DNA of 64,000 nucleotides from Candidatus Enterousia sp. Its GTDB lineage: Bacteria; Pseudomonadota; Alphaproteobacteria; Rs-D84. This document shows, piece after piece, positions 2,811 through 15,529 of the stretch. Made by a program: the position numbers and the translations under genes. The stretch's first letter is position 1. The number at the start of each line of letters is the position of its first letter. The DNA lies in contig JAZROV010000002.1 of the NCBI GenBank assembly GCA_045648885.1, forward strand, positions 6,343 to 70,342. The letters are read 5' to 3'. Under the pieces are notes generated by a model, which was not told the DNA's origin, made no database searches, and worked only from the letters and a program-made list of their open reading frames with translations.

Positions 2811-4379
2811 TTAATTTGATCCTAAGCCTGCTTCAGTTAAGCATTTTTCTATTTTATCTGAACCAGAGTCTTTGATATTTGAAAGTTTTGCACATTCATA
2901 TTTTTTTGCAATAACATTTTCAATTTCCTGTATTTTTTTCAGATACTGCACGACGCCTTGATCGGGTATTTCACCTTCGGCACATTTTTCACAAAAGCCC
3001 TTTGACCATAAACCATAGGCACTATCTGCATTTTTACAATCGGCTGCAAATTTATTCTCTTCCGCCCGATAAACGATAAACATAGCTTCATTTAAACCAT
3101 TGACATTTTCTTTCAATGATGCAGTTAGATTTATATCATTAAAATTTGCAGATTCTGGCGCTATGAAATAACCGTCATTTTGTTTAGATGCAAAAATACC
3201 ATCAATCTGCAAACGCGTTGTTATCACAGGCGTTTCAAGATTCGTAAAACTGACAATTGATGATTTAATATTGTTTAATGACAAACTTTGTTTGATTATA
3301 CAATTTTCAGCATACAAATTGGCATTGAAATTGGCCAGTGTATCGCAAATAGAAGAATTGATGTCGCCTGTTATTATTATTTTACCCCCCCCCACAGCGT
3401 CTAAATTTTCTATATATCCTGACGCCCCGTCGATATTACCACTTAACATTGTCACGCCATCAACAATTAAACTGCTGTCCGAAACAAAATTCAAATTTCC
3501 ATTCACAATCGCCCTTGATGCATCGTAATTTGTGTTCAATGTCACCCCGTGAATAAAATTCAAATTTTTAATATCAATGTTTTCACCACCCAGCGTCAAA
3601 CCGTTTGAAAAATATGCTGACTGAACCTTACCTAAACTGCCAACATTTACAATATCATGTCCATCCAGATTCAAAAATGATAACATCGTCGAATCTTCTG
3701 GGTTATTATCTTCGGGATCTGCCGCATTCAATCGCCACAAATATTTTGAATCGCCACGTGTCGCATTGGTTGTTTCAACCAGACCACTGGCATAACTCGA
3801 TAAATTAAAATTCGATTTTTCTGTGTGGAACGCATTAAAACCACCGCGTATAAAATTACCGTCAACAAAGCCGACTTTGCCGCCACCCAAATTTACAATT
3901 TCACGTGTCCGCATTGAATTGACACTGCCGTTGGTTAAAAGCACGACCCCTTGCAAGACGGCTTCATCATTATTGTCGCGTGATTTACGAATACGCAATT
4001 TATAATCGTTCGCGTAATCGGCTGCAAATTCAGGCGTCAAACCATAATTTATCAATCCGTATTGACCATCTTCACTGGATAATATTAAACAATCGATTTT
4101 CTTATGATCTGTGTCTTCAGTGAAAACAACATCATTTACCGGACGTAATAATTCACTTTGTTTTTCAAAAATGCAACGTTCCAACGCACGGCGAACAATA
4201 TCCATTTGTTTAACAACTGCGACATTACGCGCACGTTCAATCGTGTTTTTTTGATATCGAACAACAAATGGTATCGCTATTGCCGCCAAAGCGACCGACA
4301 ACATCAATTCCATCAACATTCCACCACGAAGTGAATTATGTTTTAATTTGCTGAAAAGATTTTTATTCTTATTGCTCAT
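2811..4379 (-). CDS. large prepilin-type N-terminal domain protein (modular-pilin-like), paralog A
   Basis: 522 aa. Leader ..NSLRG|GMLMELMLSVALAAIAIPFVV (Gly, Glu at +5, hydrophobic helix). Shared block LNLDGHDIVNVGSL, N/G/D/I-rich repeats, Cys-bearing C-terminus. Confidence 0.7.
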   Translation of the reverse strand: MSNKNKNLFSKLKHNSLRGGMLMELMLSVALAAIAIPFVVRYQKNTIERARNVAVVKQMDIVRRALERCIFEKQSELLRPVNDVVFTEDTDHKKIDCLILSSEDGQYGLINYGLTPEFAADYANDYKLRIRKSRDNNDEAVLQGVVLLTNGSVNSMRTREIVNLGGGKVGFVDGNFIRGGFNAFHTEKSNFNLSSYASGLVETTNATRGDSKYLWRLNAADPEDNNPEDSTMLSFLNLDGHDIVNVGSLGKVQSAYFSNGLTLGGENIDIKNLNFIHGVTLNTNYDASRAIVNGNLNFVSDSSLIVDGVTMLSGNIDGASGYIENLDAVGGGKIIITGDINSSICDTLANFNANLYAENCIIKQSLSLNNIKSSIVSFTNLETPVITTRLQIDGIFASKQNDGYFIAPESANFNDINLTASLKENVNGLNEAMFIVYRAEENKFAADCKNADSAYGLWSKGFCEKCAEGEIPDQGVVQYLKKIQEIENVIAKKYECAKLSNIKDSGSDKIEKCLTEAGLGSN

Positions 4380-4398: not shown

Positions 4399-5724
4399 TT
4401 ATATATTTAATGTTTGAACAACATCATTAAAAGGATTTGTATTTAATATCATATATGGTTCCATTCCATTAATTTTTAAATGATCTTGGGGGATAGAAAG
4501 ATTTGGGACTATTATTTCCCCGCTTTCAGTTTTATACAGAGAATATTTTAAAATTCCTGAATTTTGCTCCATAACAAAAGAACTACCTTTGTCTTCCTCA
4601 TAATCTTTTTGTTTCGGCAGTGTATCACTGGAAATCGCAACTTCACCATCTTTGTTATCAAAGCCGACATTGAAAACCCCGTCACCGGTCAGGTTTTCCA
4701 GATATGTCGCGTTTAATATACTCGCCGTTGTTTCCCCCAGATTTAACTCTTTATCTATTCCCAAACTTAAATTGTTACCAATTTCTATATTACCACTTAA
4801 TGATATATTTTGTGCATACAACGTGCCAGCAGTCGCATCAATTGTTTTCGTATCAATTTCTTTCAGATTGTCGACATCTCCCAGAACAGTCAGTTTTCCA
4901 ATATGTGGGCTGCCATCTGATGTTTTTATTTCTGCGCCTGATGAAAACGTCGCATTATTGACATTCACAATACCTGAGCCGGCATTCAAAAATAACGCCT
5001 GGGCCGAATTAATGTTTGCTATACCACAATCATCCCCAACACAACAAACATCCCCACTGCAACCGTCTGGATTTGGAACCGATATATTTTTTACGTTATA
5101 AAGGTTATTAAAATTCATATTCAAAGTGCGTTCCATTCGATTTAAATGCGCACCACCAATCGTTCCACGATGCAGATATCTATCATTGTCCGCTTCGCTG
5201 AAATCATGTGTTATTTTGAACACCAAATCTCCGGGGGTTAAATCATCATCAAAACTGACCGCCCAATCATTTGAATATGCAATATTGTCATCACTGACCA
5301 GCGCAGCATCCGAACCAATATATTTTGCGATATTTGCAGTCCGATACGCAGTTCCCAAAGAAAACAACAAATATACCTCTATGGAAGAGCCACCAACCAT
5401 ATTATTTCTGAACACCCAACCGCTTTGCGCCAATGGCGCAATCGACGCTAATTCTTCTGCAGTAAACGGGACCGCAGAACCGTCATCAGATAAAAATTCA
5501 GACTGATTTACACGAACAAAATCTACCACTGGATCGCGCAATTTCACGATTTGGTTTGCCAGTGCAACATCTTTCACAGTATTATTCATATCTGCAATAT
5601 GATAATACATAAACGGCACCAACATCAAAACCAATGCAACCGCCAAAATAACTTCCAGCATTGACGCACCACGTTGGGTTTTAAAATTTTGTCTTAAAAA
5701 ATTTTTTTGTTTAACCACGACCAC
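4399..5724 (-). CDS. large prepilin-type N-terminal domain protein, paralog B
   Basis: 441 aa. GTG start with GGGGTG SD. Leader ..FKTQRG|ASMLEVILAVALVLMLVPF. Shared blocks RYLHR and LNMNFNNLYNVKNI. Confidence 0.7.
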   Translation of the reverse strand: MVVVKQKNFLRQNFKTQRGASMLEVILAVALVLMLVPFMYYHIADMNNTVKDVALANQIVKLRDPVVDFVRVNQSEFLSDDGSAVPFTAEELASIAPLAQSGWVFRNNMVGGSSIEVYLLFSLGTAYRTANIAKYIGSDAALVSDDNIAYSNDWAVSFDDDLTPGDLVFKITHDFSEADNDRYLHRGTIGGAHLNRMERTLNMNFNNLYNVKNISVPNPDGCSGDVCCVGDDCGIANINSAQALFLNAGSGIVNVNNATFSSGAEIKTSDGSPHIGKLTVLGDVDNLKEIDTKTIDATAGTLYAQNISLSGNIEIGNNLSLGIDKELNLGETTASILNATYLENLTGDGVFNVGFDNKDGEVAISSDTLPKQKDYEEDKGSSFVMEQNSGILKYSLYKTESGEIIVPNLSIPQDHLKINGMEPYMILNTNPFNDVVQTLNI

Positions 5725-6511
5725 TATTACACCCCGATCTGTTTCCAGTCTTGCACAACACTTGATTTATACGACGTTCTGCCCGTTCCAAATAAATATA
5801 TTTACACAATATATTTTGCATCAAAGATCCGTTATTCGTACTGATTTGATTTTTGAGATCCAAATCCTGTTTCAACACAGTAGCACAATTTATCGTAGTT
5901 GTATTATTCGTTTTTTCCGGATGATCAATTATTGCTAATTTATTCAACAAACAATTCCCCCCCGAACAATCAATCAAATCAACATCTGGAAATGCAGACA
6001 TTCCCGACGGAAACATCACAGCCCGAACGCCATCATTTGGATGTTCTTTCAAATACGCAAAATTTTTATCTCTGAATGTGATTTTAGATGCATAAAGGAC
6101 CCGCGTATGTATTCCACTTCCACCACTAGATGTTTCGTAAGTATTTCCTATGACATTCAAAAATTTACTGACCCCTATTTTGCTCGCAACACCGGTTGCA
6201 GAATTTGCAGTAAAACTGTTACCTATATTCAGATAAACAGGATGTTCTGATGTTCCAATAAATAAATTACCGCAACTCGAAGGTTTAAGGGTCTCTTCTT
6301 CATATGCCGTTGGCAAAAGCCCCAGACCAACCGCACTGTCTGTTTTTCCAATTTGCCCCCCAACCGACACATTCAAATTTTGCAGATATTTACCATATAG
6401 ACCAACAGTTTGCAATTCGGCATTATCAACATTCAAAGAACTGGTTTTCACGCTTAATGCAGAATCGGTGCTGCTTTTTTTATTAAAACGAAATTTGTCG
6501 CCTTTTAACAA
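5711..6511 (-). CDS. C-terminal portion of pilin-like paralog C (same frame as 6554..7207, separated by one TGA)
   Basis: 266-aa ORF whose only possible start is a TTG with no SD, and no ATG for more than 150 codons. N/G/S-rich like the C-terminal halves of paralogs A and B, with a DCSGGNC motif resembling GCSGDVCC of paralog B. Confidence 0.5.
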   Translation of the reverse strand: MLKGDKFRFNKKSSTDSALSVKTSSLNVDNAELQTVGLYGKYLQNLNVSVGGQIGKTDSAVGLGLLPTAYEEETLKPSSCGNLFIGTSEHPVYLNIGNSFTANSATGVASKIGVSKFLNVIGNTYETSSGGSGIHTRVLYASKITFRDKNFAYLKEHPNDGVRAVMFPSGMSAFPDVDLIDCSGGNCLLNKLAIIDHPEKTNNTTTINCATVLKQDLDLKNQISTNNGSLMQNILCKYIYLERAERRINQVLCKTGNRSGCNSGRG

Positions 6512-6553
6512 TCTAAAAACGTTTGCATTTGATGATGAACCGCCCCCAGTCTG

Positions 6554-7207
6554 TCATTTTAAACCACCCCCCATCAGCGCCAGTGTATCAATGCGCGCAC
6601 GATAAAAATTTCCAGATTCTGCATGCAATTCACCAACATTTTCAATACGATTCCAATTCATATCTAATTCAGTCAAAAAACCAATATGTTCGTCAGTTTC
6701 ACGACGCGAAACAATGTCTGAATAAATCGTATCAACCGGCACAGATACATACACATTTCCATTAGATGCATGCGCAAAAAAACCAACCATACGCGCCAAT
6801 TCCGCCAATTGATAATCTGATAAATCACCACGCGTAGCAACAACATTAGCTTTGAGAGTATAACCATTGCCATTTTCTTTTGCTTTTTTATTGATGTCCA
6901 AACTGATATTTTGGTTCAAAGATGTCGTTGTATTAAATCCACTGGGCAAACCATACGGCATCAACGTATCAATCAAGGTTTGTCCAGAATAACTGGTATT
7001 ACCATAATTAAAACCGTCCTGGATAGATTTATCACGCAAATAAACACGTGCAACATCATGCAAAGTTTCAATAGACGTTTTCGCAGAATACATTTTTGCA
7101 GACATATCTCGCGCCGCCAATTTGTTCGCCAAAAACGGCATAAACGCAAACACCAACGTCAGCGCTAACAAGGCCTGCAAAAGAAAATTTCCGTTTTGTT
7201 TTTGCAA
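6554..7207 (-). CDS. prepilin-type N-terminal portion of pilin-like paralog C
   Basis: 217 aa. TTG start 5 nt after an AGGAGAG SD. Leader MQKQNG|NFLLQALLALTLVFAFMPF (Gln at +5). Shared block LDMNWNRIENVGEL about 25 aa before the TGA stop. Confidence 0.6.
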   Translation of the reverse strand: MQKQNGNFLLQALLALTLVFAFMPFLANKLAARDMSAKMYSAKTSIETLHDVARVYLRDKSIQDGFNYGNTSYSGQTLIDTLMPYGLPSGFNTTTSLNQNISLDINKKAKENGNGYTLKANVVATRGDLSDYQLAELARMVGFFAHASNGNVYVSVPVDTIYSDIVSRRETDEHIGFLTELDMNWNRIENVGELHAESGNFYRARIDTLALMGGGLK

Positions 7208-7351
7208 AAAATCTCTCCTGTACAGACGGATAATAGCATCTAAAAAAAATTATTGCAATTGCTTTTAAGATGTTTTAACATTCAATTAAATCAATACAGT
7301 GATTATAACGCTGTATGAAAGATTATTTCCATTTAACAACAAAGAAAAAAC

Positions 7352-9275: not shown

Positions 9276-9704
9276 ATGAAAGAACAATCTGGACGTTCAT
9301 TAATAGAAATCGTTGGTGTTTTGGCAATCGGTGTTATTATGATTGCATCTGCATATAACATGTATCGGTCAATTGACCAGCGTCAAAAACGTATGATTGC
9401 ATACGAAGATGTAAAAGAAGTCGCCAGAAAAACGAAAATTTTATATGAATATTCCGGCTATGACGGTTTGTCTGTTTCTAAATTGGTGTCTGCCGGCGCA
9501 TTAAGCAGTTCAAACGCACCGATTGGTTCATGGACAATATCGTCATATAATGAAAACAAAGAATTTAAAATAACTCTTTCTGGTTTGACGCGTAATGAAT
9601 GCAAATATTTTGCCACGAAAAAAAGCAGTGATTGGGCATACAATACTTCTGCAAGTTGCGGTGCATCTGAATCAAATCCGTCTATTACGTTTTTTGTTAA
9701 ATAA
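9276..9704 (+). CDS. type IV pilin-like protein (conventional size)
   Basis: 142 aa. GGGGGA SD. Leader MKEQSG|RSLIEIVGVLAIGVIMIASAY (Glu at +5). C-terminal Cys pair (ECKYF..x..SASCG) like a pilin disulfide loop. Confidence 0.7.
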   Translation: MKEQSGRSLIEIVGVLAIGVIMIASAYNMYRSIDQRQKRMIAYEDVKEVARKTKILYEYSGYDGLSVSKLVSAGALSSSNAPIGSWTISSYNENKEFKITLSGLTRNECKYFATKKSSDWAYNTSASCGASESNPSITFFVK

Positions 9705-13981: not shown

Positions 13982-14671
13982 TTATTCTTCGTCTTCGGTA
14001 TTTGGAACAATTCCATATGCTAATTCGCGCGCTTTCATAACAACACGTTCAGCCAAACTGTTCGACATATTGTCTTCGCCCAGAATTTCAACCAATTCAT
14101 CAGATGCTAAATCTGCCAAATCAGACAAAGATTTAACGTCGTTTTCACCCAATTTCATGATAATTGGACGTTTGATGAAATCGAATTTTAACAAATCGTC
14201 GCTCATACCCATTTTGTGACCATTGTCAAAATAATCTTGTTCTTGTTTTGCCAGATATGCCCGTGCACGATTTTGCAATTCAACCGCCAATTCTGTGTTA
14301 AAGCCTTCGATTGATTCCAATTCAGATTGTTCAACATAGGCGATTTCTTCGATTGTTCTGAAACCTTCTGTGATTAACAATTGCGCGATTGTATCATCGA
14401 CATCCAGTGCACCAGTAAACAATTCTGTTTTTTCTTTGAATTCTTTGGCGCGACGTTCTTGTTCTTCTGCTTCGTTCATGACATCGATATTCCAACCTGT
14501 TAATTGAGACGCCAAACGAACATTTTGACCACGACGACCAATTGCCAAAGATTGTTGATCTTCGGTCACAACAACCGCAGCAGTATGTGTATCTTCGTCA
14601 ACAATGATTTTTGCGACCTTGGCTGGTTGCATAGCATTCACGATAAACACAGCAGGATCTTCTGAATACAA
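13982..14671 (-). CDS. nusA: NusA, C-terminal segment (KH domains and acidic tail)
   Basis: ..DPAVFIVNAMQPAKVAKIIVDEDTHTAAVVV..AIGRRGQNVRLASQLTGWNIDVM aligns to E. coli NusA as I recall it. Same reading frame as 14687..15529. Confidence 0.85.
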   Translation of the reverse strand: MYSEDPAVFIVNAMQPAKVAKIIVDEDTHTAAVVVTEDQQSLAIGRRGQNVRLASQLTGWNIDVMNEAEEQERRAKEFKEKTELFTGALDVDDTIAQLLITEGFRTIEEIAYVEQSELESIEGFNTELAVELQNRARAYLAKQEQDYFDNGHKMGMSDDLLKFDFIKRPIIMKLGENDVKSLSDLADLASDELVEILGEDNMSNSLAERVVMKARELAYGIVPNTEDEE

Positions 14672-14686
14672 AATAACATCGATTTT

Positions 14687-15529
14687 TTAACCATGACATT
14701 CGTTGATAACCGGTTGAATACGTGTTCCCTTAATACCGACAGTCATCCCCACTGCATCAATAGATGGATCCTGGGTTTCAACTGCGATTTTTGCATGCGA
14801 ACCCGGCGCACGTGATACAGATTTAATTTTGATAATACCTTCATAGATTTCAGGCACTTCCTGGGTGAATAATTTTTCCATAAAGCCCGGATGTGTTCTG
14901 GTCAAGAAAATTTGTGGACCTGAATTAGAACGCACAACGTCCATAATCAACGCACGAACACGATCACCCACAGCCAGACGTTCGCCCGGAATCAATTCTG
15001 TATTTTTGATATAGCCTTCTGCTTTGCCGTTGATATCGACAAAAACGTTTCCAAATTCAATACGTTTAACAACACCACTGACGATATCACCAATATTGTC
15101 TTTGAATTCTTCGTATTGGTTGCCTTTTTCAGCATCACGCACACGCGCAGTCATAATTTGACGTGCGGTTTGAAACGCCATACGACCAAATTCTGGTTCT
15201 GGCAACATATCTTCTACAACATCGCCCACAGACGGATTTTTCGCGTATTTTTTCGCTTTTTCAACTGTCAACATCGTGTTCGCATCGTATTCATCGCCCA
15301 TACTTTCAGGTGATTCAATAACAGTAAACAAACGTTTTACATGGATTGCGCCATTTTTACGGTCAATTTGTGCAACGATATTAAACTCTTCGCCATATTT
15401 ATGTTTTGCAATCTTGGCAATCGCGATTTCCAAAGATTCAATCACAGTTTCACGATCTATCATTTTTTCTTGGGCCAAAGAATCAATCGCTAACAATAAA
15501 TCTTGACGTGGCATAGATTCAAAAGACAT
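14687..15529 (-). CDS. nusA: NusA, N-terminal segment (NTD, S1, start of KH1), ending at an in-frame TAA
   Basis: 280 aa. The N-terminal domain and S1 region (GDIVSGVVKRIEFGNVFVDI) are recognisable. It ends ..RIQPVINECHG*, where E. coli has ..RVQAVSTELGGE. Confidence 0.85.
   Translation of the reverse strand: MSFESMPRQDLLLAIDSLAQEKMIDRETVIESLEIAIAKIAKHKYGEEFNIVAQIDRKNGAIHVKRLFTVIESPESMGDEYDANTMLTVEKAKKYAKNPSVGDVVEDMLPEPEFGRMAFQTARQIMTARVRDAEKGNQYEEFKDNIGDIVSGVVKRIEFGNVFVDINGKAEGYIKNTELIPGERLAVGDRVRALIMDVVRSNSGPQIFLTRTHPGFMEKLFTQEVPEIYEGIIKIKSVSRAPGSHAKIAVETQDPSIDAVGMTVGIKGTRIQPVINECHG

What the first reader, a model, noticed from the sequence alone, without database searches (positions are those of the whole stretch)
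5711..7207. Third pilin-like paralog is split by a single in-frame TGA
Seen in the sequence: ORFs 6554..7207 and 5711..6511 are in the same minus-strand frame (7207 and 6511 are both 1 mod 3). They are separated only by TGA (6556..6554) plus 14 sense codons. The joined reading is ..RIDTLALMGGGLK * QTGGGSSSNANVFR LLKGDKFRF..

- The stop falls about 25 aa after the family motif LDMNWNRIENVGEL. At that point paralogs A and B continue uninterrupted.
- The downstream ORF has no SD. Its only possible start is a TTG, and it contains no ATG for more than 150 codons.
- Joined, the two pieces give about 498 aa, matching the 441-aa and 522-aa paralogs.

Possible explanations (inference): a recent nonsense pseudogene, a sequencing error, or leaky or programmed readthrough. 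The context is UGA-C, which is known to be among the leakier termination contexts.
Basis: partly seen in the sequence, partly recalled or inferred. Interest (0 to 1): 0.6.

Follow-up and report, generated by a model that had tools for sequence, protein, structure and literature searches.

The report
Young premature stop in pilin-like gene
A gene for a large pilin-like surface protein, which is one uninterrupted gene in essentially all related gut bacteria (Candidatus Enterousia), carries a single very recent premature stop codon in this assembly, most likely an ordinary strain-specific knockout or a sequence error and not a programmed signal.

Summary
Minus-strand frame 7207..5711 is one reading frame of 498 codons, broken only by TGA at 6556..6554.

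- **Genetic code.** The code is standard. RF1 and RF2 are both present, tRNA-Trp is CCA, there is no tRNA-Sec, and TGA ends about 82 genes.
- **Orthologs.** Orthologs are single open frames of 448-500 aa in 80 of 80 named genomes. Among about 150 listed species genomes of the genus, all but one are intact.
- **Nearest relatives.** The two closest metagenome relatives read AAG TCG CAG (Lys-Ser-Gln) where the window reads AAA TGA CAG.
- **Position.** The stop sits in a lineage-specific Gly/Ser-rich insert of about 8 codons, in a poorly predicted (low-pLDDT) stretch after the confidently predicted N-terminal domain.
- **Age.** The 280 codons downstream show no relaxed selection. The window branch has 9.5 synonymous and 3.5 nonsynonymous changes. 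The stop is therefore very young, or not real.
- **No recoding signals.** I found no RNA structure, no conservation of the stop, and no usable restart site.

My odds are: real recent nonsense allele about 55%, consensus or assembly error about 30%, functionally relevant leak about 10%.

Two complications remain. nusA, 8 kb away, also carries an in-frame stop, which raises the error worry. The genus-wide tRNA-Trp has a 4-bp anticodon stem plus A24, features linked to UGA misreading. Overall interest is low.

The parts
5711..7207 (-). Whole interrupted gene ('gene C'). It has 498 sense codons plus one internal TGA and a terminal TAA. It is the first gene of an operon of three large prepilin-like proteins.
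   Evidence: It aligns end to end with single-ORF orthologs of 448-504 aa.
6554..6556 (-). The in-frame TGA, followed by C.
   Evidence: The nearest relatives L015 and L016 read TCG (Ser) at this codon.
6557..7207 (-). Upstream ORF of 217 aa with a TTG start. It holds the prepilin-like leader (..QNG|NFLLQ..), a 57-residue N-terminal helix, a confidently predicted alpha/beta domain (residues 6-160) and the conserved motif LTELDMNWNRIENVGEL.
   Evidence: AlphaFold models give pLDDT 80-93 for residues 10-160. Invariant columns are listed.
5711..6553 (-). Downstream open frame of 280 codons plus the stop. It encodes the variable beta-rich region and the conserved Cys-containing C-terminal helix (..SLMQNILCKYIYLERAERRINQVLC..). 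It has no leader, no SD and no ATG for 179 codons.
   Evidence: dN/dS against L015 is 0.32. The window branch has 9.5 synonymous and 3.5 nonsynonymous changes.
6547..6570 (-). Lineage-specific insert of about 24 nt (about 8 codons, G-G-L-K-*-Q-T-G) in a Gly/Ser-rich stretch of the poorly predicted region. The stop lies inside it. Its exact borders are ambiguous because of the flanking G runs.
   Evidence: The insert is present in the window, L015 and L016. It is absent from L017/P0003, P0004, P0005 and all distant orthologs.
7215..7219 (-). Shine-Dalgarno AGGAG, 7 nt upstream of the TTG start.
   Evidence: The TTG start is conserved in 56 of 80 orthologs.
4399..5724 (-). Neighbour A, 441 aa and intact, with a prepilin-like leader ..QRG|ASMLE... 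Its GTG start overlaps the end of gene C by 14 nt.
   Evidence: The same 14-nt overlap is seen in relative L017.
2811..4379 (-). Neighbour B, 522 aa and intact, with a prepilin-like leader ..LRG|GMLME...
   Evidence: Gene order is the same in L017.

Best explanation
Gene C is normally a single gene of 450-500 aa. It encodes a large prepilin-like protein with three parts: a leader and long N-terminal helix with a compact N-terminal domain; a poorly predicted middle region; and a variable beta-rich C-terminal part ending in a conserved Cys-containing helix.

In this genome, a very recent strain-specific substitution changed a serine codon into TGA. That codon lies in a lineage-specific Gly/Ser-rich insert. 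It is TCG in the nearest relatives and was probably TCA in the immediate ancestor. RF2 terminates translation there.

The main product is then a 217-aa protein that keeps the whole N-terminal domain and loses the C-terminal 280 residues. The downstream frame cannot be made on its own, because it has no leader, no SD and no nearby start codon. Only trace amounts of full-length protein are expected, from near-cognate decoding of UGA-C by tRNA-Trp. This is an ordinary nonsense (truncation) allele, not a recoding device.

Shown here: the single-gene ancestry, the standard code, the youth of the lesion, and the absence of recoding signals. Inferred: that the base call is real, the fate of the truncated protein, and possible polarity on downstream genes A and B.
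For: - **One gene in relatives.**
  - 24 of 24 same-genus genomes match, and the 11 relatives' orthologs examined in detail are single ORFs of 449-455 aa.
  - 80 of 80 orthologs from named genomes are open for 448-500 aa.
  - About 150 listed species genomes of the genus have open frames of at least 450 aa, except G011.
  - Closer metagenome relatives P0003-P0007 are uninterrupted across the site.
- **Sense codon in the nearest relatives.** L015 and L016 read AAG TCG CAG where the window reads AAA TGA CAG. The flanks are identical for about 60 nt on each side.
- **Standard code.**
  - tRNA-Trp has anticodon CCA and there is no tRNA-Sec.
  - RF1 (PET motif) and RF2 (SPF motif) are both present.
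  - TGA ends 82 of 633 coding-like ORFs, 12 of them as TGA-C.
  - No other in-frame TGA was seen in 130 genes compared with relative G002.
- **Youth.**
  - Downstream dN/dS against L015 is 0.32.
  - The window branch has 9.5 synonymous and 3.5 nonsynonymous changes. Neutrality is rejected at p = 4e-5 to 4e-4.
  - The only indel in the downstream frame is a single codon.
- **The rest of the operon is intact and syntenic with L017**.
- **Loss of this gene does occur in nature.** Independent orthologs are broken in different ways: a deletion of about 16-17 nt (L115), a deletion of about 80 nt (L116), a TGA at another site (L118), and an insertion with frameshift (G011).
- **No recoding signals.** The fold z-score is -0.01 and there is no relevant Rfam hit.
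Against:
- **Second stop nearby.** nusA, normally essential, carries an in-frame TAA 8.1 kb away on the same contig. All 25 relatives have GAA there. At least one of the two stops may therefore be an artefact or a minority variant.
- **Only one sighting.** No second, independent assembly carrying the same truncated allele was found.
- **Ambiguous selection signal.** The lack of any relaxed-selection signal downstream fits a sequence error, or continued translation, just as well as it fits a very young mutation.
Confidence: 0.55

Rival explanations
1. Consensus or assembly error, or a minority variant captured by the assembler. The organism's dominant genotype has a serine codon here and the gene is intact.
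For: - The assembly has a second in-frame stop, in nusA: GGT TAA AAA, against GGT GAA AAA in all relatives.
- The downstream frame is pristine and looks selectively constrained.
- No independent record carries the truncated protein.
- The genome is a 21-contig MAG.
Against: - The assembly is otherwise clean. A whole-genome screen and a 157-kb comparison with relative G002 found only these two nonsense-split genes and no clear frameshifts.
- Two nonsense errors would imply roughly 40 substitution errors in 836 kb.
- Gene C is broken by unrelated lesions, including deletions, in other assemblies. Real loss-of-function alleles therefore have a higher prior than a random error landing in this 1.5-kb gene.
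Confidence: 0.3
2. The stop is real but leaky to a functionally relevant degree. UGA-C in a tolerant linker-like stretch is misread as Trp by the genus's unusual tRNA-Trp(CCA). The cell would then make mostly the 217-aa form plus a useful fraction of full-length protein. This would be unprogrammed buffering, or a strain-specific 'dimmer'.
For: - **tRNA-Trp.** The only tRNA-Trp has an unpaired U27/C43, giving a 4-bp anticodon stem, plus A24, the state created by the Hirsh mutation. This form is found in 25 of 25 sampled Enterousia species. It is absent from the five tRNA-Trp genes examined in one other genus of the order, which have G:U or C:G at 27:43 and G24.
- **Published effect.** A 4-bp-stem tRNA-Trp(CCA) raised UGA readthrough about 2.5-fold in E. 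coli, and G24A is a classic UGA suppressor change (PMC13092985).
- **Context.** By my own recollection, +4 C is a weak termination context in E. coli.
- **Position and selection.** The stop lies in a non-conserved Gly/Ser insert, and the downstream codons look constrained.
- **Other nonsense lesion.** The only other nonsense lesion seen in an ortholog is also TGA (L118).
Against: - RF2 is present.
- TGA ends 82 genes, and TGA-C ends 12 of them, with no sign of avoidance.
- The published effect is modest and was measured with an overexpressed tRNA.
- The tRNA trait is genus-wide, while the stop is unique to this genome. The site is therefore not an evolved recoding site.
- There is no stimulatory RNA structure.
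- The nusA stop is TAA, which this tRNA cannot explain.
Confidence: 0.1
3. A functional split into two separately translated genes: an N-terminal pilin-like protein and an independent C-terminal protein.
For: Both halves are long open frames. The split falls just after the confidently predicted N-terminal domain.
Against: - The downstream frame has no SD. Its only nearby start is a TTG 14 codons in, and there is no ATG for 179 codons.
- It would lack any leader for export.
- The ATG that overlaps the stop (A-ATG-A) is out of frame and opens only a 14-codon ORF.
- No ortholog shows a conserved two-gene arrangement.
Confidence: 0.03

Closest known systems
Ordinary nonsense (premature-stop) alleles and young pseudogenes of bacterial surface-structure genes
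   Same: A single lesion in an otherwise intact, conserved gene. Relatives are intact. Other strains carry different, independent lesions in the same gene.
   Different: No decay has accumulated downstream, so the lesion is extremely young or not real. It cannot be verified without reads.
Large or modular minor pilins of type IV filament systems (TcpB/CofB-type initiator pilins, GspK-type pseudopilins lacking Glu5, modular pilins of Streptococcus sanguinis); named from my own knowledge
   Same: - A leader ending in Gly followed by a hydrophobic segment.
- A predicted N-terminal helix of 57 residues followed by a compact domain.
- A large extra C-terminal module.
- Gln instead of Glu at +5, as in tip pseudopilins.
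- A prepilin peptidase, a T2SSE-type ATPase and canonical small prepilins encoded in the genome.
   Different: - No Pfam or NCBIfam prepilin hit.
- No Foldseek match to any solved pilin; the best E-value is 0.06.
- Filament incorporation is untested.
[quoted passage not shown]
   Same: The sole tRNA-Trp here has U27/C43 unpaired and A24. Both features are conserved across the genus.
   Different: The genome uses TGA as a normal stop and has RF2. No in-frame TGA was seen at conserved Trp positions in 130 compared genes. The readthrough level is unknown.
Selenocysteine recoding (UGA plus SECIS)
   Same: An in-frame UGA.
   Different: There is no tRNA-Sec. Relatives have Ser, not Cys. There is no stable structure downstream and no relevant Rfam hit.

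Membership tests
Nonsense-disrupted gene (young pseudogene or truncation allele) | Orthologs are a single uninterrupted ORF spanning both pieces | tested here: met
   80 of 80 named genomes and about 150 listed genus genomes are intact, with one exception (G011).
Nonsense-disrupted gene (young pseudogene or truncation allele) | The stop replaces a sense codon found in the closest relatives | tested here: met
   L015 and L016 have TCG (Ser) and the window has TGA.
Nonsense-disrupted gene (young pseudogene or truncation allele) | The lesion is real in the organism (read support) | not testable with these tools
No independent record of the truncated product was found.
Nonsense-disrupted gene (young pseudogene or truncation allele) | Relaxed selection or further lesions downstream (expected only if the lesion is old) | tested here: not met
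   The window branch has 9.5 synonymous and 3.5 nonsynonymous changes, and the only indel is one codon. The lesion is young.
Programmed stop-codon readthrough site | The stop codon is conserved at this position in orthologs | tested here: not met
   None of the intact orthologs examined has a stop here. The two relatives that share the insert read Ser.
Programmed stop-codon readthrough site | A stimulatory downstream RNA structure | tested here: not met
   MFE -26 kcal/mol against a shuffle mean of -25.98, z = -0.01; no relevant Rfam hit.
Programmed stop-codon readthrough site | A leaky tetranucleotide context | tested here: met
   The context is UGA-C. However, 12 ordinary genes also end in TGA-C.
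Reassigned UGA (NCBI tables 4 and 25) | Loss of RF2, a cognate tRNA(UCA), and in-frame TGA in conserved genes | tested here: not met
   RF2 with an SPF motif is present. No tRNA has anticodon UCA. TGA ends 82 genes. No other in-frame TGA was found in 130 compared genes.
Selenoprotein | tRNA-Sec, a SECIS element, and Cys in homologs | tested here: not met
Type IV pilin / prepilin-type protein | Class III leader: Gly at -1, a hydrophobic helix, Glu at +5 | tested here: inconclusive
   ..QNG|NFLLQALLALTLVF.. has the Gly and the hydrophobic helix but Gln at +5. GNFLLQ is invariant in the alignments. Neighbours A and B have Glu at +5.
Type IV pilin / prepilin-type protein | Match to prepilin N-terminal profiles (Pfam N_methyl, NCBIfam prepilin-type domain) | tested here: not met
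   no hit for gene C. Neighbour A gives only E = 0.087.
Type IV pilin / prepilin-type protein | Pilin fold | tested here: inconclusive
   The models show helix 6-62 plus an alpha/beta domain at pLDDT 80-93. Foldseek against the PDB gives no match below E = 0.06.
Type IV pilin / prepilin-type protein | Processing and assembly machinery encoded in the genome | tested here: met
   An A24 prepilin peptidase at C13:4151-4474. A T2SSE ATPase at C2:112451-114080. Small canonical prepilins at window 9276-9704 and in tandem on C16.

The most novel reading that the evidence does not exclude
In Candidatus Enterousia the only tRNA-Trp(CCA) carries two features tied to UGA misreading: an unpaired 27/43 pair, giving a 4-bp anticodon stem, and A24. 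UGA nonsense codons in weak contexts would then be partly suppressed across the genus. Under this reading, the UGA-C in the linker-like stretch of gene C yields a short pilin-like form plus a working fraction of full-length protein. That would explain why the downstream half still looks constrained. Such buffering would make TGA nonsense alleles unusually tolerable in this lineage.
Probability: 0.1. Interest if true: 0.55.

Novelty: already known. Interest (0 to 1): 0.2.

Why it matters
As it stands, the practical value is for annotation. The locus should be annotated as one interrupted gene, not two ORFs. The assembly should also be flagged for read-level checks at two in-frame stops, this one and the one in nusA.

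The only route to wider interest is the genus-wide tRNA-Trp with a 4-bp anticodon stem plus A24. If that tRNA measurably suppresses UGA at native levels, this natural UGA-C allele would be a ready test case for how such tRNAs buffer nonsense mutations in bacteria with reduced genomes.

Tried and rejected
- **Exact-product look-up of the 217-aa protein.** Nothing is on record.
- **Search for near-identical truncated alleles.** The best hit is 52% identical, and most hits are contig-end fragments.
- **Alternative genetic code.** Rejected.
- **Selenocysteine.** Rejected.
- **Reinitiation or translational coupling.** The A-ATG-A overlap is out of frame and opens only 14 codons.
- **Phase variation at the flanking G6 and G5 runs.** Rejected. 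Relatives have the same run lengths, and the difference is by substitution only.
- **Family assignment.**
  - Pfam and NCBIfam gave nothing.
  - Foldseek against the PDB, with both the full-length model and the 217-aa model, gave nothing significant.
- **Genome-wide screens for other split genes.**
  - The first two versions were too noisy, because of shadow ORFs and adjacent same-frame genes.
  - The filtered versions left only nusA and gene C.
- **'Recurrent inactivation' as an enrichment claim.** Dropped. Only about 1 of about 150 species genomes, plus 4 metagenome contigs, are broken. No control gene was measured.
Full report
**Observation.** The minus-strand frame that starts at TTG 7207..7205 runs to TAA 5713..5711. 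AGGAG lies 7 nt upstream of the start. The frame has a single interruption, TGA at 6556..6554, followed by C. After the stop come 14 sense codons and then the TTG at 6511 that the ORF list uses as a start. That TTG has no Shine-Dalgarno sequence. The first ATG is 179 codons after the stop. The joined product is 498 aa. The word 'paralog' is loose. Gene C matches neighbour A only over the first 58 residues (E = 1e-4) and matches neighbour B not at all by BLASTP.

**Organism and code.** The window is C2:6343-70342 of an 836-kb, 21-contig, 94.5%-complete genome. Named relatives are Candidatus Enterousia, order Rs-D84. These are gut Alphaproteobacteria with reduced genomes (PMC12306168). The code is standard:
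- one tRNA-Trp with anticodon CCA, no tRNA with anticodon UCA and no tRNA-Sec;
- RF1 (PET motif) and RF2 (SPF motif) both encoded;
- TGA ends 82 of 633 coding-like ORFs, 12 of them as TGA-C;
- in 130 genes (44.7 thousand aligned residues) compared with relative G002, no other real gene has an in-frame TGA.

**One gene in relatives.**
- All 24 same-genus genomes of the first search have a match, and the 11 relatives' orthologs examined in detail are single open frames of 449-455 aa.
- All 80 orthologs fetched from named genomes are open for 448-500 aa.
- Of about 150 listed species genomes of the genus, all have open frames of at least 450 aa except G011.
- The protein database holds closer relatives: P0003 (78% identity, 504 aa), P0004, P0005, P0006 and P0007. 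None is interrupted.
- The DNA of the two closest, L016 (N-terminal half 96.9% identical) and L015 (C-terminal half 92.9% identical), reads AAG TCG CAG where the window has AAA TGA CAG. The flanks are identical for about 60 nt on each side.
- Two of the three differences are third-position G-to-A changes that would be silent. The nonsense step itself is then a single C-to-G change from TCA.

**Where the stop lies.** It sits inside a Gly/Ser-rich insert of about 8 codons. Only this sub-lineage has the insert. P0003, P0004, P0005 and all distant orthologs lack it. AlphaFold models place it after a confidently predicted N-terminal domain: helix 6-62 plus an alpha/beta domain to about residue 160, at pLDDT 80-93. 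It falls in a low-confidence stretch. The 217-aa product would keep that whole domain and the conserved LTELDM.. motif. It would lose the variable beta-rich region and the conserved Cys-containing C-terminal helix.

**Age.**
- Downstream of the stop, dN/dS against L015 is 0.32.
- With L017 as outgroup, the window branch carries 9.5 synonymous and 3.5 nonsynonymous changes. The intact L015 branch carries 5.7 and 9.3.
- Neutral evolution along the window branch is rejected (binomial p = 4e-5 to 4e-4).
- The only indel is one whole codon.
- The rest of the operon (A, B, the 170-aa and 165-aa genes, and rluD) is intact and syntenic with L017.

The stop is therefore much younger than the roughly 1.5% divergence of this branch. 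The alternatives are that it is not real, or that the downstream part is still translated.

**Recoding signals.**
- The stop is not conserved in any ortholog.
- The RNA around and after the UGA folds no better than shuffles (z = -0.01).
- Rfam finds nothing relevant.
- Selenocysteine is excluded. There is no tRNA-Sec, and relatives have Ser, not Cys.
- The ATG that overlaps the stop is out of frame and opens only 14 codons.
- The G6 and G5 runs flanking the site have the same lengths in relatives, so slippage is not involved.

In favour of an error:
- nusA, 8.1 kb away on the same contig, has an in-frame TAA where all 25 relatives have GAA, at a conserved Glu. A fixed nonsense codon in nusA is hard to believe.
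- No independent record carries the truncated allele.

In favour of a real mutation:
- The assembly is otherwise clean. A whole-genome screen and the 157-kb comparison with G002 found only these two nonsense-split genes and no clear frameshifts.
- Gene C is demonstrably lost in nature by unrelated lesions:
  - a deletion of about 16-17 nt (L115);
  - a deletion of about 80 nt (L116);
  - a TGA at another position (L118);
  - a frameshift near a contig end (L117);
  - an insertion with frameshift in G011.
- A real loss-of-function allele of this gene occurs in the order of 1-2% of assemblies. That is a higher prior than a random consensus error creating a stop in this 1.5-kb gene.

I put a real allele at about 55% and an error or minority variant at about 30%.

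**A complication that favours leakiness.**
- The only tRNA-Trp(CCA) has U27 opposite C43, which gives a 4-bp anticodon stem. It also has A24 paired with U11, the state produced by the Hirsh suppressor mutation.
- Both features are present in 25 of 25 sampled Enterousia species. They are absent from the five tRNA-Trp genes examined in one other genus of the order, which have G:U or C:G at 27:43 and G24.
- A recent survey reports that 4-bp-stem tRNA-Trp(CCA) occurs in about 9% of bacterial tRNA-Trp genes and is associated with lower UGA usage. When overexpressed in E. coli, it raised UGA readthrough about 2.5-fold (PMC13092985).

Some full-length protein, with Trp in a tolerant linker-like stretch, is therefore more plausible here than in a typical bacterium. 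The trait is genus-wide, however, while the stop is unique to this genome. TGA and TGA-C are ordinary terminators in this genome. I treat this as unprogrammed leak and give it about 10% odds of being functionally relevant.

**What the gene is.**
- There is no Pfam or NCBIfam family and no Foldseek match in the PDB.
- The prepilin-like reading rests on four points:
  - the leader (..G|NFLLQ.., invariant in the alignments, with Gln rather than Glu at +5, whereas A and B have Glu);
  - the long N-terminal helix;
  - a genome-encoded A24 prepilin peptidase and T2SSE ATPase;
  - canonical small prepilins.
- It works like a large modular minor pilin, but membership is not established.

**Verdict.** This is an ordinary, very young premature stop, or a base-call problem, in a conserved single gene. 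It is not a programmed recoding site. Interest is low. The tRNA-Trp observation is the only thread that could lift it.

Noticed in passing
window 14687-14689 (nusA, minus strand 15529..13982): nusA carries an in-frame TAA (GGT TAA AAA) at a conserved Glu. All 25 relatives searched are intact, and the two closest read GGT GAA AAA. A whole-genome screen found only this gene and gene C as clear nonsense-split genes.
   Followed up: partly
own genome C11:1493-1566 (outside the window); loci L120-L149: The sole tRNA-Trp(CCA) has an unpaired U27/C43 (4-bp anticodon stem) and A24. This form is conserved in 25 of 25 sampled Enterousia species. It is absent from the five tRNA-Trp genes examined in one other genus of the order Rs-D84. 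It is a published class linked to UGA misreading (PMC13092985).
   Followed up: partly
window 5711-7207 compared with L016 and L017: Gene C is a mosaic. Against L016, dS is 0.14 in the N-terminal half and 0.93 in the C-terminal half, and the sequence switches about 78 nt after the stop. Against L017 the pattern is reversed (0.70 and 0.19). The C-terminal domain appears to be exchanged between strains by recombination near this stretch.
   Followed up: partly
window 5711-7207 compared with genomes G002, G007 and G009: Species whose NusA is 94-95% identical have gene C orthologs only 45-47% identical over the N-terminal ~270 residues, with a C-terminal part that barely aligns. This protein evolves or is replaced extremely fast.
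   Followed up: no
window 7205-7207; loci L023-L102: The TTG start codon of gene C is conserved in 56 of 80 orthologs (13 ATG, 3 GTG). In one relative (L005), a stop codon immediately precedes the TTG.
   Followed up: no
window 7190-7174 (residues 6-11 of gene C): The leader motif G|NFLLQ has Gln at +5, invariant in the ortholog alignments. Neighbours A and B and the small prepilins have Glu at +5. This is reminiscent of tip pseudopilins that lack Glu5.
   Followed up: no
L115:2501-3846, L116:2501-3777, L118:2501-3865, L117:2501-3406, L119 (G011:C11:11800-14200): Orthologs of gene C in other assemblies are broken by unrelated single lesions: a deletion of about 16-17 nt, a deletion of about 80 nt, an in-frame TGA elsewhere, a frameshift at a contig end, and an insertion with frameshift. 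In the three contigs that extend that far, the called flanking genes look full-length. I did not measure whether this gene is broken more often than others.
   Followed up: partly
window 9276-9704 (+); own genome C16 (two tandem genes), C2:110501-115155, C13:4151-4474: The genome encodes canonical small prepilins (MKEQSG|RSLIE.., and two with ..HESG|RSM[IV]E.. in tandem). It also has a T2SSE ATPase gene cluster and a short A24 prepilin peptidase. A type IV filament machine therefore exists, although it is not next to the three large genes.
   Followed up: partly
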